Positions 27,001 to 49,500 of a stretch of 64,000 bases of DNA are shown piece by piece. Location: positions 36,084,001-36,148,000 of the forward strand of contig NC_083291.1 in NCBI RefSeq assembly GCF_963506605.1, written 5' to 3'. The position numbers are program-made. How positions within the stretch are numbered: position 1 is the first letter of the stretch; each line of letters opens with the position of its first letter. This stretch comes from Zootoca vivipara (Eukaryota).

Positions 27001-30000
27001 CGTGTTGCCTCCTTCTTCTTTTTTGTATTTTGGTGTTTTGACTCAGGTCTGCAACACAGGGGTTGTTTCATTAGCATTTAGGAAGGAGGTGCCAGGGAAA
27101 CATTTAGGGAACTAGCCTAGTCCCCCTATTCCAATGACTGCACACCACGGGGTAAGATGGAGGGTGATATATCTACCAGTCTTTTCTGCTCATTTTCTCA
27201 CTCCCCCTTCCTTTATGCAAGTCATGGCAGAGATCTCCATTGTATCCCTCAAAGCTCAATGTGCAGAAACTGAACCCCTGCTGACAATTTCTGCAGCTGC
27301 TTCAAACACAATTCTAGGATCCCAGCTGCTTCCTCTCTGGTACATGGAGAATCTCCTTTCTGGGGCCCAGTCCATCCCATCCCATCTCCTGTTCCAAATC
27401 AAAATCTTGCCAATGTAAAATGTTTAAAAAGAAGGCAGCCCTTAGACCATTGTGCTGTCATGCTCCTTTGGGTATCAATCTGTAGATCAGGCACCCCCAA
27501 ACTTTGGCCCTCCAGATGTTTTGGACTACAATTCCCATCATCCCTGACCACTGGTCCTGTTAGCTAGAGATCATGGGAGTTGTAGGCCAAAACATCTGGA
27601 GGGCCGAAGTTTGGGGATGCCTGCTGTAGATTATCCCTCACATCTTTTCTGATCTGTGCATAGACCGCCCCCAGCCCCCAGAGATTATGCTTCTCCCCAG
27701 TTGTGGAGCAAACCAGAATCCTCTTGACATCCATACTCAAAGGAAAAAAAACTTTTCTAAGACTTATTAATGAGGACAAGCTAATTTGTTAAGCTGAATG
27801 ATGGGTTGGGTCTCTGAATGATGATTCTCCAGAGTTTATGCTATTGCATTATATTATTTCTGGAGGGGGAACCTGTTTGAGACGTCCTTGGACCCTGGAG
27901 AGCACCACCCTTAAGCAGAGATGAACACTGCTTCCCTTGCATCAGAAAACACAGAGCTAATCTCCTCAGCAGATGAAGGAGGCCAGTTTCCTCCTATGCA
28001 GAACAAGTCCACTTCCTTTGTTCTTCACATTGACAGGAGCAAGTGAGCAAACAGGAAGTGCCTTTACTTAAGTAAGTGTGAATATAGTTATGTTTTTGGG
28101 GTGGGAGCAAGACTCCCCTAAAATATCTGGATTCAGTGAAGGGTTAGAATTTAAGGAAACCCCTAAATTACTGGGCCTAATGGGCCTTGAGTTTAAAGTG
28201 GGTTTTCCATGTCCAGGAAACCACTTGGCGGAAGAACCATCAAAAGGTAATCACTGGAATGGCCGAGACAAACCCATTAAGAAGGTCAGTTTCTGTCTGG
28301 GCTGGACAGAAAATGGGGAAAGCCCTCTCTGAGGTAAGAGATAATTAGCAGAGACAAAAGGACAGAGTTTCAGGAGGGTGGAGAACTGCAGTGGGCAATG
28401 AGGTAAGCAAACAGGAAAGAATTGTCATTTTTGAAGCTGGAGAGTGGGGGGGGGGCAAAGCATGAAGCTGCAGAAGAGGTGAGACATGATATTTGGAGTC
28501 TCTTGGAATCTGAGGCTGCAGCAATGGAAGAAACAGGACCCTCTTGGGATGTGAATGCTCTGATCTCTCTCAATCTAGACACAGATTGCATGCATATGTA
28601 AATAAACCATGTATCATAAAGAGATCACGGACTCCACTTGGCCTCATTGTTCCAAAAGTAAACACAGACCCTGGTAAGCATGCATGGCACCTCTAGAATC
28701 TCTCACTGCTCATAGATTGGTGAAACAATGTGTCACCCACTTAAAAGCTTCTAACATCCAAGAAACCTATTGAGGATTATTTAATGGTTACTAATCAGTA
28801 TCTGCTGAATTCACCCAGTACAATTAAAGCCCATGACCCCTCAATTTCTACATTCCAGTCATGAGTCTTATCCCACCAGGTTTCAATAATTTCTATTAGG
28901 TCATATCTGCCACCCTGCATTAAGAGTTCAAATTCGTCTTCATTGTTTCCTATACTCTGTGCATTTGTATAGAGACAACTGAAACCACAAGACGTTCCCT
29001 CCAGCTGCTTCCTTCTTGTAGTTTCCTGCCCTTTAGCAGGTTTCTGTAGCACCACCTCAGTTTCCTGTGCATCAACGTGTTTTCCTTTCATCTGTAATAT
29101 TGTCTCCCTCCTCCTCAGGATTTAGTTTAAAGCTCTCCTGATGGGGTTCATGAGACCCTTAGCAAACACATTCTTGCCAACCACTGTGAGGTATAACCAA
29201 TCTCTTGCCAGAAGTCCATCCTCAAGGAAGCAGGAACCATGGTCCAAGAAGCCAAACCATTCCTGACAACACCTGAGCAGCCACTGGTTTACCTCCAGTA
29301 TCTTCCCCTCTCTTCCTGGGCCACAACCTTCAACAACAAGCAGTGATGAAAAAACCCACCTGTACCCTAAGGCTCTTCAGCTTCTAATCCAGAGTCTTAA
29401 AGTCCCTTGCTATGTCTGTGTCTGTCAGTATCTCAAAACCAGAATACAATATGAGGGGAGGAAAGAGGGATTTCTGCATAGCTCAGTTTGGGCAGCTAGC
29501 AAGCAGAGGGTGGGGAATTTACTAGCCTAAACATTTCTTCTTCTTGCCCCTACAGCAGCTTTCGCCTAATGAGTCCTGGGAATGCAACAGACTTCTCTGA
29601 ATTATTCCTCCATGGCTTCCCAACCCAGCCAGAGTTTCAAGGGCTCCTCTTCCTGCTATTCCTCTCCATGTACCTGCTGGCCATTCTGGGGAACACAACA
29701 ATCATCTTCTTGATCCGTTCTGATTTACAGCTCCTCCACGCTCCTATGTATTTCTTCCTCAGCAACCTTGCCTTAGCTGACTTGGGCTTCATCTCCACCA
29801 CAGTCCCCAAAGTGCTAGAAAACTTGTTGTCTCAAAAAAAGACCATCTCCTATCGTGCCTGCCTGGTGCAGATGTACTTTTATATGTCTTTTGGCAACTC
29901 AGACAGCTTCCTGTTGGCTTCCATGGCCTACGACCGTTTCGTGGCCATCTGCTTCCCCTTGCATTATTCTGCCCTGATGAGCCGTCAGCGTTGCCTCCTC

Positions 30001-46500: not shown

Positions 46501-49500
46501 AAAAGCACGATGAATAAAAACACAAATATACATCAGAAAAATACAAAAAGTTACAAATACAGGAAAAAAGAGGGGGGGGGAGAAAAAAGCTAGAAAGCCT
46601 AATCTTAAAAAAAAAAACATTCCTGTTCGTAGGAACCTGTGAAAGACAAGATAGATAAAAATGTATAACAAAAGGGATGGGAAGTATCTGTGTACAAAGG
46701 TAATGAGTGTATATATTCTGTATCTTTTCCTTTTTTCTAGAGGATAGATTTGGTTGGAATGTTTTCTTTGGAGGTTCTTAAGCAGAGGTTAGGGACCCAG
46801 GTGGCACTGTGGGTTAAACCACAGAGTCTAGGGCTTGCTGATCAGAAGGTTGGCGGTTTGAATCCCTGCAACGGGGTGAGCTCCCGTTGCTCGGTCCCAG
46901 CTCCTGCCAACCTAGCAGTTCGAAAGCACATCAAAGTGCAAGTAGATAAATAGGGACCGCTCCGGTGGGAAGGTAAACTGCGTTTCCGTGTGCTGCTCTG
47001 GTTCGCCAGAAGCAGCTTTGTCATGCCGGCTACATGACCCGGAAGCTGTCTGCAGACAAACGCCGGCTCCCTCGGCCTATAGAGCGAGATGAGTGCCGCA
47101 ACCCCAGAGTCGGACACGACTGGACCTGATGGTCAGGGGCCCCTTTACGTTTACCTTTAAGCAGAGGTTAGATAGCCATCTGCCATGAATGCTTTAGTTG
47201 AGATTCCTGCATTGCAAGGGGTTGAACTAGATGACCCTTAGGGTCCCTTCCAACTCTACATTTCAGCAATTCTATGATTCTAAATGGGTGCTGTCTTGGG
47301 CAGCAAGATTACACACATACAAAGCCGTCCTTCCTATTGGGCTTACTGGCGCATTGCGCCAGGGCACTGGCCTCTCAGGGGCGCTCCAGCGAGTGGGGGA
47401 GCCTGCTCGGCTCCCCTTTCCTTCCTGCATGCCCACCAGCTGTGCCCCATCAACCATATGGCTGGCGGGCATGCAGCTTGCCTCCCAAGCCTCTGCGGGA
47501 GGAGAGCTATCCCTGCAGAGGCTTAGGATGGAAGCTGCGCCCTGCCAACTATATGGCTGGCGGGTGTGCAGCTTCCTTCCCAAGCCTCCAAGGGAGGAGA
47601 ACAATCCCCGCAGAGGCTTGGGAAAAGGTCAACCACTGTGAGAAATGGGGGGAGGGCGCCGGAGGGATCTTTGCACCACGGCGCCGGATATGCTTAAGAC
47701 GGCCTTGCACATATATGGGCAGCAATGCAATCATTAAGTCGGTGTTTCTCAAACTTGGGTCTCCAGCTGTTGTTGAACTAGAATTCCCATCACCACTGAC
47801 CACTGGTCCTGCTAGCTAGGGGTGATGGGAGTTGTAGTTCAACAGTAGCTGAGAACCCAAGTTTGAGAAACACTGCATTAAGCACATATACAGTATACAA
47901 CTTATATCTAAAGAGTAACATAAGTCCCCAGTGAACCAAAAAAAGCCCTAAAGCGTGGGTGTAACAATATGCCACAGACACATGCTAAAAAAAGAGAGAA
48001 CAAGGGAGATGGTTAGTTTGAATGCAACTATACCCTATAGAGAGGGCGGAGGCTTCCTGTGTGAGTGAATAATGCAAAGACCATTTGGTTGCCTATACTA
48101 GTCCTAAATCATAAATCTACTCTTGGAAGATTTAATTATATTTGAAGTCTGGTTATTACTTACAGGGGAGTGATAGTTAATATAAGGGACATATATGATT
48201 ATGATGCTGATCTTTACTGTATGTATTAGGGTTAAGAAAATATTTGCTTATGGTAGTTATGCTCTGGTCCATGAAGAGTCGGACACAACTAAATGACTAA
48301 ACAACAACAACAAAAGCTCAGCTAATCCTAGCACATGCAGGCCCCAAATACCTGAAAGACAGATTGCAGTCCGTTTCCCCATTACAGATACCCATCATTT
48401 TGGCCAAAGTTTAAAACAGACCCGAAAGCGGACACACCATCTGTGTGCTCTAGTGTCCAAGTGATGTTGGCTCCCACTCCTGCTACTATAAGATGTGACA
48501 GCTAAAGACACTAATGAAAATGGTGCCTAATGACCCTCTTCATGGCCGCTTTCATTTCACTATTCCTGAGACTGTAGATGAAGGGATTCAGCATAGGGGT
48601 CACCATGGTATACATGACAGAGGCCACAGTGTCCTTGCGATCCGAGTTGTTGGAACGTGGCTTGAAATAAACCCAGCTCACAGTGCCATAGAACAAGACC
48701 ACCACAGCAATGTGGGACCCGCAGGTGGAGAAAGCCTTTTTCTTTCCAGAGCTGGATGGAATCTTCAGGATGGTGTAGAAAATGCGCACATAGGAGATGG
48801 CGATCAGCACAAATGGCCCCAGGACCTCCACCACCCCTTCAGTCAGAAGCAGCATTTCAATGACACTGCTGTCTGAGCAAGAGATCTCCAACAAAGGGTA
48901 AAGATCGCAGAAGAAATGTGGGATCTCCCTAGAGTCACAGAACGAAATGCGGGACATCAAAATGGTATAAAGCAGAGAGTGGACAATAGGGATAGCCCAG
49001 GACACTGATGCGAGGAGGAGGCAACGCTTACGGCTCATCAGGGCAGAATAACGCAGGGGGGAGCAGATGGCCACGTAACGGTCGTAGGCCATGGAAGCCA
49101 ACAGGAAGCTGTCTGAGTTGCCAAAAGACACATAAAAGTACATCTGCACCAGGCAGGCATGAAAGGAGATGGTCTTTTTATGAGACAACAAGTTTTCTAG
49201 CACTTTGGGGACTGTGGTGGAGATGAAGCCCAAGTCAGCTAAGGCAAGGTTGCTGAGGAAGAAATACATAGGAGCGTGGAGGAGCTGTAAATCAGAACGG
49301 ATCAAGAAGATGATTGTTGCGTTCCCCAGAATGGCCAGCAGGTACACGGAGAGGAATAGCAGGAAGAGGAGCCCTTGAAACTCTGGCTGGGTTGGGAAGC
49401 CATGGAGGAATAATTCAGAGAAGTCTGTTGCATTCCCAGGACTCATTAGGCTAAAGCTGCCGTAGGGGCAAGAAGAAGAAATGTTTAGGCTAGTAAATTC

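What the first reader, a model, noticed from the sequence alone, without database searches (positions are those of the whole stretch)
29569..49446. Receptor CDS is more divergent than the dead DNA around it
Seen: twins B1 and B2 differ at ~23 of 311 residues (e.g. DRF/DRY, VMEIL/VVEVL, LAAV/VASV), several in TM3-TM5. A non-coding block (28078-28332 vs 50686-50940) shows only ~4 differences in 255 nt, and a dead CR1 block (~32760-33105 vs ~45855-46200) looks identical by eye. Several B1 changes look like CpG decay (V>M, R>H, R>C). Inference: flanks are homogenised by gene conversion while the receptors are kept distinct by selection, or the CDS was converted by another paralogue.
[Added by the scan's program, not by the reader: the finding's places include an assembly gap (unread letters, written N; its length is only estimated) at 38330 to 38466. 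Whether the letters on both sides are continuous or in frame is not known: test that first.]
Basis: partly seen in the sequence, partly recalled or inferred. Interest (0 to 1): 0.75.

Follow-up and report, generated by a model that had tools for sequence, protein, structure and literature searches.

The report
Twin smell-receptor genes, patchily homogenised arms
Two copies of an olfactory receptor gene sit in an inverted duplication whose arms are a patchwork of nearly identical and more diverged stretches. The gene is no more diverged than the dead DNA just downstream of it, so this is ordinary patchy copy-correction, not receptors held apart by selection.

Summary
B1 and B2 differ at 23 of 311 residues and 32 of 936 nt. 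Block 28078-28332 has 4 differences in 255 nt, and the dead LINE block 32760-33105 has 0 in 346.

The generalisation fails because those were the two quietest flank stretches.
- Over the whole arms (27077-33757 vs 51911-44625; 157 differences in 5902 aligned columns, 2.66%), the CDS (3.42%) does not differ from all flanks (2.52%, p=0.12; without CpG 2.58% vs 2.00%, p=0.25).
- It matches the 3' flank (3.14%; 4.41% in the first 1.8 kb).

A scan finds one diverged block, 29312-32764 (4.1%), against 1.4% elsewhere (permutation p<=0.003). That block holds the CDS, 1.8 kb of aligned dead DNA and arm-private insertions.

dN/dS is 0.89, indistinguishable from 1.

Best reading: patchy arm-to-arm gene conversion, with the twins drifting almost neutrally inside an older, unconverted block.

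Unexplained: the differences show GC/AT polarity that switches between blocks (p about 0.01).

The N gap (38330-38466) lies in the spacer. It touches neither arm nor CDS, but the arms' relative orientation rests on that scaffold join.

The parts
27077..33757 (+). Arm 1 of the inverted duplication
   Evidence: Self-BLAST and MAFFT alignment to the reverse complement of 44625-51911. 5902 aligned columns, 157 differences (2.66%). Sharp ends at 27077 and 33757.
44625..51911 (-). Arm 2 of the inverted duplication
29569..30504 (+). B1, intact olfactory receptor CDS (311 codons; DRF in place of DRY)
   Evidence: ORF. Pfam 7tm_4 203.3 bits, E 8.5e-60.
48511..49446 (-). B2, intact olfactory receptor CDS (311 codons)
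   Evidence: ORF. Pfam 7tm_4 210.8 bits, E 4.5e-62. Closest solved chain is consOR1 8uxy_A, E 1e-115.
29312..32764 (+). Diverged block of arm 1 (partner about 49704-46197): last 257 nt before the ATG, the CDS, and 2.26 kb of 3' flank
   Evidence: Best high-divergence interval of the scan statistic: 112 differences in 2710 aligned columns (4.1%) vs 45/3192 (1.4%) outside. 0 of 300 permutations reached it. Events version p=4e-5.
27194..29311 (+). Low-divergence 5' block of arm 1 (partner about 51801-49705)
   Evidence: Best low-divergence interval: 25 differences in 2090 columns, permutation p<=0.003. No indel longer than 11 nt in it.
32734..33757 (+). Low-divergence distal block of arm 1 (partner 46227-44625, split by a 580-nt insertion private to arm 2). 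Holds the dead LINE fragment and the 347-nt identical run 32760-33106
   Evidence: 13 differences in 1023 columns (1.27%). LINE RT homology with stops. Run p=0.008.
29833..30264 (+). Cluster of differences inside the CDS (nt 265-696, codons 89-232; partner 49182-48751)
   Evidence: 26 of 32 CDS differences, permutation p=0.008. pS 0.060 and pN 0.060.
30923..31227 (+). SINE insertion private to arm 1 (305 nt), with a clean empty site in arm 2
   Evidence: Alignment gap. Junctions with a 4-nt repeat at both ends. Other copies of the family in the window at 78-87%.
32331..32733 (+). 403-nt insertion private to arm 1, exactly at the border between the diverged block and the distal low block
46478..47158 (-). 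681-nt insertion private to arm 2 (includes a SINE of the same family), with a clean empty site in arm 1
47525..47619 (-). 95-nt segment private to arm 2. It resembles the sequence next to it (local duplication, or deletion in arm 1)
44918..45497 (-). 580-nt insertion private to arm 2, with a clean empty site in arm 1
33758..44624 (.). Spacer between the arms (10.9 kb). Holds OR gene C (36043-37011 -), repeats and the gap. No arm-to-arm homology apart from repeats
38330..38466 (.). Assembly gap (137 N) in the spacer. The two arms lie on opposite sides of it
   Evidence: Nothing spans it. GC-rich island 38000-38300 abuts it.

Best explanation
B1 and B2 are the two copies of an olfactory receptor gene carried on the arms of a 6.7/7.3-kb inverted duplication with a 10.9-kb spacer. 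After the duplication the arms exchanged sequence by non-reciprocal copying (arm-to-arm gene conversion), but only in patches.

The 5' block (27194-29311) and the distal block (32734-33757) were reset recently and are about 1.2-1.3% diverged. The block 29312-32764 was not reset and keeps about 4%. That older block contains the CDS and an equal or greater load of differences in 1.8 kb of aligned dead 3' DNA. It also holds the arm-private insertions (305, 95, 681 and 403 nt). Both its borders coincide with indels.

Inferred: these heterologies break the homology that conversion needs, so tracts stop there.

Inside the block the two receptors have changed at nearly the neutral rate (dN/dS 0.89). 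Inferred: relaxed constraint on a young redundant pair, not selection for difference.

Shown: the anatomy, the patchiness, CDS = 3' flank, and dN/dS. Inferred: that conversion made the patches and that heterologies set the borders.
For: - Anatomy.
- Patchiness: sliding windows range from 0 to 8.8%. The scan statistic gives high block 112/2710 and low block 25/2090, each reached by 0 of 300 permutations. It is robust to merging differences <=5 nt apart into 110 events (72/2710 vs 38/3192, p=4e-5). There is a 347-nt identical run (p=0.008).
- Base composition does not differ between blocks (GC 0.445-0.448 in non-coding blocks).
- CDS not special: 3.42% vs 4.51% for non-coding DNA of the same block (p=0.19), or 3.81% leaving out the hottest window (p=0.66). 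Vs all flanks p=0.12. Non-CpG p=0.25.
- dN 0.034, dS 0.0385, ratio 0.89, Fisher p=0.83. dS matches the non-coding divergence of the block.
- Private insertions have clean empty sites in the other arm. All four in 30923-32733 fall in or at the edge of the diverged block. The borders sit at the 10/11-nt indels 29354-29389 and at the 403-nt insertion 32331-32733.
- The neighbouring inverted OR pair A1/A2, on one uninterrupted contig, also shows uneven divergence: CDS 9/981 vs flank 20/921, p=0.038, with all 9 CDS differences in one half of the gene.
- Arm-to-arm conversion, GC-biased, is documented for Y-chromosome palindromes (PMC8600007, abstract and passages read).
Against: - No orthologue or outgroup genome was available. 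The classic proof of conversion (paralogues closer than orthologues in the quiet blocks) is therefore missing.
- The patchiness could also come from staged duplication or from assembly polishing.
- The 580-nt private insertion lies inside a quiet block, so heterology does not always coincide with high divergence.
- Differences within the CDS cluster in codons 89-232 (p=0.008). A selection-maintained peak would also look like this.
- The switching GC/AT polarity of the differences is not predicted by simple unbiased patchy conversion.
- The arms lie on opposite sides of an N gap, so the inverted arrangement is not verified.
Confidence: 0.6

Rival explanations
1. One reading: conversion homogenises the arms, and selection against conversion keeps the receptors distinct. 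This would give a peak of divergence centred on the ligand-binding core (TM3-TM5), as at exon 5 of the primate L/M opsins.
For: - CDS differences are clustered in nt 265-696 (26 of 32, permutation p=0.008).
- 17 of 23 residue differences lie in residues 95-221 (p=0.0014, post hoc).
- CDS vs 5' flank p=0.010. CDS vs the two quiet blocks 32/936 vs 45/3192, p=0.0002.
- In this model linked neutral sites also diverge, so high dS and a diverged near flank are allowed (PMC3924837 passages; PMC3213168 abstract).
Against: - The peak is not centred on the CDS. The 3' dead DNA is as diverged or more (4.41%; 22/250 at 31436-31690) for 2.26 kb, then drops abruptly at an insertion, while on the 5' side divergence falls within about 260 nt.
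- Central CDS 26/429 vs block non-coding 80/1774, p=0.21.
- dN/dS 0.89 overall and 1.00 in the cluster give no sign of selection either way.
- The polarity bias is shared by synonymous sites (7 of 7 informative) and by the 3' flank (32 vs 16).
Confidence: 0.15
2. A third, unseen paralogue outside the window donated sequence to one copy (the central CDS and/or 3' flank of one arm). That would raise divergence there and import a one-sided set of differences.
For: - One-sided GC/AT polarity in blocks (23 vs 5 in the CDS; 2 vs 15 at 27602-29111; Fisher p=5e-6, post hoc).
- Many differences come in tight clusters: 157 differences collapse to 110 events.
- B2-derived changes are 5 W>S and 0 S>W, unlike polarisable changes in dead repeats (0 W>S, 6 S>W; p=0.002).
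Against: - No such copy is in the window. tblastn finds six full ORs and one fragment, and only B1 and B2 are close.
- The other ORs are 60-69% identical in nt, far too distant to give a 6% patch.
- B1 and B2 are equally distant from each outgroup (12 vs 10, 13 vs 11, 13 vs 11, 15 vs 10).
- The divergence of the patch equals that of the adjacent non-coding DNA, so no extra donor is needed.
Confidence: 0.1
3. Assembly artefact. Either the quiet blocks were homogenised by consensus polishing with cross-mapped reads, or the two arms are haplotypes (or wrongly oriented contigs) joined at the gap.
For: The arms lie on opposite sides of the N gap 38330-38466 and nothing spans it. Perfect 347-nt identity in dead DNA.
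Against: - The arms end 4.6 and 6.2 kb from the gap rather than at the contig ends, as overlapping haplotigs would.
- There are five private insertions or segments of 95-681 nt and 2.66% divergence.
- An inverted OR pair (A1/A2) exists nearby with no N between its arms.
- The mosaic result does not depend on orientation.
Confidence: 0.1

Closest known systems
Arm-to-arm gene conversion in palindromes (human Y-chromosome palindrome P6; PMC8600007, abstract and passages read)
   Same: Inverted arms separated by a spacer and kept similar by non-reciprocal exchange. That paper reports a GC bias (58 of 77 informative events fixed G/C). Here the differences show GC/AT polarity in blocks.
   Different: Y palindromes are far larger and nearly identical throughout. 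Here the arms are 6.7-7.3 kb, 2.66% diverged on average, and only partly homogenised. Conversion is inferred from one genome, not seen on a phylogeny. The locus is an autosome-like OR cluster of an unnamed sauropsid-like genome.
Peak of divergence under selection against conversion (primate L/M opsins; review PMC3924837 passages; gibbon study PMC3213168 abstract)
   Same: Duplicated receptor genes with quieter non-coding DNA on at least one side. Differences are concentrated in the part of the protein that sets ligand or spectral specificity.
   Different: In the opsins, exon divergence is significantly above intron divergence and centres on known tuning sites. Here the CDS does not exceed its 3' flank or the arm as a whole, dN/dS is about 1, and no functional site is known.
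Gene conversion among clustered OR genes (Sharon et al. 1999, seen only as reference 33 of PMC3790853 and in its introduction, which calls ORs a conversion hotspot; content otherwise recalled)
   Same: OR paralogues in one cluster exchanging sequence.
   Different: As I recall that work, conversion is seen mainly within coding regions, making the CDS more alike than the flanks, as in the A1/A2 pair here. In the B pair the quiet tracts are in the flanks.

Membership tests
Olfactory receptor (class A GPCR, Pfam 7tm_4) | Match to the family profile above the curated cut-off | tested here: met
   7tm_4: B1 203.3 bits, B2 210.8 bits, cut-off 27. Closest solved chains are OR structures, consOR1 E 1e-115.
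Olfactory receptor (class A GPCR, Pfam 7tm_4) | Single uninterrupted ORF of about 310 codons with the family's conserved motifs (MAYDRY, KAFSTC, PMLNPFIY; motif names recalled) | tested here: met
   Both ORFs are intact at 311 codons. The motifs are visible in the alignment. B1 has DRF instead of DRY at residue 124, while the other five ORs of the window have Y.
Olfactory receptor (class A GPCR, Pfam 7tm_4) | Expression in olfactory neurons and response to odorants | not testable with these tools
   No expression or ligand data.
Palindrome / inverted duplicate with arm-to-arm gene conversion | Two inverted arms of high identity around a spacer | tested here: met
   Arms 27077-33757 and 51911-44625, 97.3% identical in aligned columns, with a 10.9-kb spacer. 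Caveat: the arms lie on opposite sides of an N gap.
Palindrome / inverted duplicate with arm-to-arm gene conversion | Tracts of identity longer, and divergence more uneven, than independent mutation gives | tested here: met
   Scan statistic p<=0.003. Longest identical run 347 nt, p=0.008. Events version p=4e-5.
Palindrome / inverted duplicate with arm-to-arm gene conversion | [quoted passage not shown] | not testable with these tools
   No vertebrate genome collection is open.
Palindrome / inverted duplicate with arm-to-arm gene conversion | GC bias of conversion | tested here: inconclusive
   Polarity blocks (runs test p=0.0097; scan p=0.008). B2-derived changes 5 W>S and 0 S>W. But 19 of 32 CDS sites could not be polarised, and there is no outgroup for most flank sites.
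Selection-maintained peak of divergence between converting duplicates (L/M opsin type) | Coding divergence significantly above that of the adjoining non-coding DNA | tested here: not met
   CDS vs all flanks p=0.12. Vs 3' flank p=0.67. Non-CpG p=0.25. Vs non-coding DNA of the same block 3.42% vs 4.51%, p=0.19. Only the 5' flank is lower (p=0.010).
Selection-maintained peak of divergence between converting duplicates (L/M opsin type) | Peak centred on functionally decisive sites | tested here: inconclusive
   There is a cluster in codons 89-232 (p=0.008), which a low-confidence model (mean pLDDT 49.2) places in helices 95-128, 139-169 and 193-228 and the loops between them. An equal peak lies in dead DNA at 31436-31690. 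No ligand data.
Selection-maintained peak of divergence between converting duplicates (L/M opsin type) | Population evidence that converted haplotypes are removed | not testable with these tools
   Single assembly only.

The most novel reading that the evidence does not exclude
The differences left between the arms may be a readable footprint of direction-specific, GC-biased conversion.

In each block one arm has been the habitual recipient. It accepted G/C variants from the other arm and kept its own, so nearly all surviving differences have G/C on the recipient arm. The recipient switches between blocks: arm 1 in 27902-29060, arm 2 from the CDS through the 3' flank.

On this reading part of the receptor divergence is driven by biased repair and not by function. 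That covers the W>S changes derived in B2, such as M34V, H132R, V151A and I216A. The near-neutral dN/dS would then be a by-product. If general, donor and recipient of past conversions could be read from a single genome.
Probability: 0.25. Interest if true: 0.5.

Novelty: new member of a known kind. Interest (0 to 1): 0.25.

Why it matters
As it stands, this is a caution. Comparing a gene with hand-picked quiet flanks makes an ordinary young OR duplicate look like a case of selection against homogenisation.

The locus is still a compact example of partial concerted evolution in a chemoreceptor cluster. Two adjacent inverted OR pairs behave in opposite ways: the A pair has its CDS quieter than its flank, and the B pair has its CDS in the older block. 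Private transposon insertions mark where homogenisation stops.

If the GC/AT polarity blocks prove real with an outgroup, they would show biased repair shaping receptor protein sequence. They would also inflate dN/dS in a family where such ratios are routinely read as adaptation.

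Tried and rejected
- Relative-rate tests for faster evolution of B1 are not significant. Nucleotide counts are 12 vs 10, 13 vs 11, 13 vs 11 and 15 vs 10; residue counts run from 6 vs 4 to 11 vs 4. By eye on the printed PDB alignment, consOR1 as an extra outgroup gives 6 vs 6. I therefore dropped the idea that B1 alone is decaying. The slightly lower Pfam score of B1 (203.3 vs 210.8) and its DRF are noted only.
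- In-window paralogues as conversion donors are rejected: 60-69% nt identity and no one-sided resemblance.
- Base composition as the cause of the patchiness is rejected, because GC is equal across non-coding blocks.
- Misalignment as the cause of the hottest window was checked by eye. The alignment is sound, though some differences sit next to small indels. Conclusions hold when that window is left out.
- B pair vs A pair N:S counts (24:8 vs 5:4) do not differ, p=0.41.
- Testing continuity across the gap found no repeat copy or X-free ORF spanning it. The question stays open.
- Structure model of B1 from a 6-sequence alignment: mean pLDDT 49.2, pTM 0.40. It was used only for rough helix limits and not searched against libraries.
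- Polarising flank differences with other repeat copies in the window gave 17 sites, of which only 6 are clear W/S cases, all S>W. That is too few to test the blocks.

Not done:
- No supplementary files were opened.
- I do not take the window for human. It carries an RT-bearing LINE with a 441-codon ORF and a second LINE family that I recall as CR1-like and BovB-like. That points to a sauropsid, probably a squamate. The names are recalled; the tools show only RVT_1.
- The ORs are single-exon, so no spliced model was needed.

Full report
**What is there**

The window is a cluster of olfactory receptor (OR) genes.
- Six intact ORFs of 311-326 codons match Pfam 7tm_4 where tested. These are D 10018-10956(-), A1 19298-20278(-), B1 29569-30504(+), C 36043-37011(-) and B2 48511-49446(-). 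A2 25939-26919(+) is 98.5% identical to A1.
- tblastn with all six finds those six loci plus one short N-terminal fragment at 33803-33964.
- The window has 44.8% GC, CpG observed/expected 0.31, and a single N run, 38330-38466.
- It carries RT-bearing LINE ORFs (RVT_1) and many SINE copies. From recall these look like CR1-like and BovB-like elements of a sauropsid, probably a squamate. I do not take it for human.

**The gap, tested first**

The N run lies in the spacer between the two arms, 4.6 kb from the inner end of arm 1 (33757) and 6.2 kb from that of arm 2 (44625).
- Neither arm nor any OR CDS contains N.
- No ORF free of X crosses the gap.
- No repeat copy aligns across it. The nearest repeats are a SINE at 37704-37950 and a LINE 3' piece at 38933-39260.
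- A GC-rich island (61-68% GC, 38000-38300) abuts it.

Continuity cannot be shown. The comparisons in the finding never cross the gap. But B1 and B2 sit on opposite sides of it, so their relative orientation and distance rest on the scaffold join.

**Anatomy of the duplication**

Self-BLAST and a MAFFT alignment show arm 1 = 27077-33757 and arm 2 = 51911-44625 (inverted), with sharp ends. There are 5902 aligned columns and 157 differences (2.66%), 37 of them in CpG context.

Five large segments are private to one arm:

| Arm | Coordinates | Length | Note |
|---|---|---|---|
| 1 | 30923-31227 | 305 nt | SINE |
| 2 | 47525-47619 | 95 nt | |
| 2 | 46478-47158 | 681 nt | contains a SINE of the same family |
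| 1 | 32331-32733 | 403 nt | |
| 2 | 44918-45497 | 580 nt | |

Three of them (305, 681 and 580 nt) have clean empty sites in the other arm. They are therefore insertions after the duplication.

Every number is right.
- 23 of 311 residues and 32 of 936 nt differ.
- 28078-28332 has 4 differences in 255 nt, and 32760-33105 has 0 in 346.
- The latter is a dead LINE RT fragment with several stops.
- The 347-nt identical run is longer than chance gives (permutation p=0.008).

These were, however, the quietest parts of the flanks.

| Region | Differences | Divergence | Fisher p vs CDS |
|---|---|---|---|
| CDS | 32/936 | 3.42% | n/a |
| 5' flank | 46/2447 | 1.88% | 0.010 |
| 3' flank | 79/2519 | 3.14% | 0.67 |
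| First 1.8 kb of 3' flank (30505-32330) | 66/1496 | 4.41% | not tested |
| All flanks | 125/4966 | 2.52% | 0.12 |

With CpG-context sites removed, the CDS is 23/892 (2.58%) and the flanks 97/4856 (2.00%), p=0.25.

**Where the divergence really is**

A scan statistic over the aligned columns picks one high block, arm-1 coordinates 29312-32764, with 112 differences in 2710 columns (4.1%). The best low block is 27194-29311, with 25 in 2090. Each was reached by 0 of 300 permutations.
- Merging differences no more than 5 nt apart into 110 events leaves the contrast intact: 72/2710 vs 38/3192, p=4e-5.
- Within the high block the CDS (3.42%) is, if anything, below the non-coding DNA (80/1774, 4.51%, p=0.19). 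Leaving out the hottest window gives 58/1524, 3.81%, p=0.66.
- The block starts about 257 nt before the ATG, at a pair of 10/11-nt indels (29354-29389). It ends exactly at the 403-nt private insertion. The other private segments at 30923, 31708 and 32078 lie inside it.
- GC content is the same in quiet and diverged non-coding blocks.

**The coding sequence**

- Nei-Gojobori counts give 24 non-synonymous and 8 synonymous differences: dN 0.034, dS 0.0385, ratio 0.89 (Fisher p=0.83).
- dS equals the non-coding divergence of the block.
- Differences cluster in nt 265-696 (codons 89-232): 26 of 32, permutation p=0.008. There pS = pN = 0.060. Codons 1-88 have 2 differences, and codons 233-311 have 4, with pN/pS 0.27.
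- The cluster is not above the block's non-coding DNA (26/429 vs 80/1774, p=0.21), nor above the dead-DNA peak at 31436-31690 (22/250, p=0.21).
- A low-confidence model (mean pLDDT 49.2) puts helices at 95-128, 139-169 and 193-228. 13 of the 23 changed residues fall in these, so 'several in TM3-TM5' is fair.
- Relative-rate tests show no significant asymmetry between B1 and B2.

**CpG decay**

9 of 32 CDS differences are in CpG context, 8 with the CpG in B2. Paralogue outgroups, and by eye the printed consOR1 alignment, suggest:
- decay in B1 at codons 166, 180 and 221;
- CpG gain in B2 at codons 34, 132 and 168;
- three sites that stay ambiguous.

Of the four M/V differences only codon 34 is at a CpG, and there M is the outgroup state.

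**An unexplained pattern**

Among the 126 differences that swap G/C for A/T, the arm holding G/C is not random along the sequence.
- In 27902-29060, arm 1 holds G/C at 15 of 17 sites.
- In the CDS, arm 2 holds G/C at 23 of 28, including 7 of 7 informative synonymous sites.
- In 30505-32330 the count is 32 vs 16 the same way.
- The runs test gives 48 runs vs 60.4 expected, permutation p=0.0097. A scan for the 15/17 block gives p=0.008.
- Strict outgroup polarisation of the CDS leaves 19 of 32 sites ambiguous. The rest are B1-derived 4 S>W, 2 W>S and 2 W>W, and B2-derived 5 W>S and 0 S>W.
- In dead repeats of the arms, the 6 clearly polarisable W/S changes are all S>W (17 sites examined). B2 vs these gives p=0.002 (small numbers).

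Protein-level selection cannot explain a bias shared by synonymous and non-coding sites. GC-biased conversion with a block-specific recipient arm, a local allelic GC-bias hotspot, or an unseen third donor are candidates. GC-biased arm-to-arm conversion is documented in the human Y palindrome P6, where 58 of 77 informative events fixed G/C (PMC8600007, passages read).

**Comparison pair**

The neighbouring inverted pair A1/A2 has arms 19270-21212 vs 26947-24918 with no N between them. It behaves the usual way: CDS 9/981 (0.92%) vs flank 20/921 (2.17%), p=0.038, and dN/dS 0.38. So inverted OR duplicates at this locus are real, independent of the gap, and patchy divergence is not peculiar to B.

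**Interpretation**

The best-supported account is patchy arm-to-arm gene conversion of an inverted OR duplicate. The CDS lies in an older, unconverted block bounded and riddled by heterologies, and the two receptors drift at about the neutral rate.

The opsin-type model predicts a peak centred on functional sites. In that model conversion is opposed by selection at the receptor (review PMC3924837, passages; gibbon L/M opsins PMC3213168, abstract). Here the peak is shared with, and exceeded by, dead DNA on the 3' side. The model is not excluded, because linked neutral sites also diverge under it and the differences do cluster in the putative binding core. But nothing requires it.

**Limits**

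- No orthologue, outgroup genome or further copy could be sought.
- Polarisation rests on paralogues only 45-60% identical in protein.
- The structure model is weak.
- No supplements were opened.
- Paper searches were for context only. I make no claim that something is absent from the literature.

Noticed in passing
19270-21212 and 24918-26947: A second inverted OR pair (A1 19298-20278 -, A2 25939-26919 +) on one uninterrupted stretch. Its spacer holds an RT-bearing LINE ORF (22336-23852). The CDS is 0.92% diverged vs 2.17% for the flank. All 9 CDS differences lie in 19778-20204, and the 3' 480 nt of the gene are identical. dN/dS is 0.38. Its outer end (26947) lies 130 nt from the start of B arm 1 (27077).
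   Followed up: partly
33803-33990 (+): An OR N-terminal fragment (start codon, TM1-like stretch, stop after about 60 codons) begins 45 nt inside the inner end of arm 1. The duplication breakpoint therefore abuts a truncated OR gene.
   Followed up: partly
33588-33757, 44625-44793, 39310-39438, 41676-41847, 43660-43831: The inner ends of both arms lie in a repeated element with three more copies (75-77%) in the spacer. This may be relevant to how the inverted duplication arose.
   Followed up: no
38000-38300: A GC-rich island (61-68% GC in a 45% GC window) lies directly left of the assembly gap. It may be why the assembly broke there.
   Followed up: no
41012-41952 and 42968-43936: A direct repeat of about 0.94 kb at 96% identity lies inside the spacer, on the arm-2 side of the gap.
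   Followed up: no
30923-31227 and 46861-47159: The same SINE family inserted independently into each arm after the duplication. The two private copies are 93% alike, closer than either is to the other copies in the window that were compared (78-87%). The family was therefore active around or after the duplication.
   Followed up: partly
55813-57744 (-): A 643-codon ORF, proline- and lysine-rich, with a weak DUF4629 match (36.9 bits, cut-off 27). It is a non-OR gene or large exon at the edge of the cluster.
   Followed up: no
27077-33757 vs 51911-44625: Differences between the arms are tightly clustered: 157 differences collapse to 110 events when those within 5 nt are merged. This hints at multi-nucleotide mutation events or micro-conversions.
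   Followed up: partly
14030-15355 (+): A 441-codon open frame of a LINE with an RVT_1 domain (E 1e-34). It is long enough to suggest a fairly young element.
   Followed up: no
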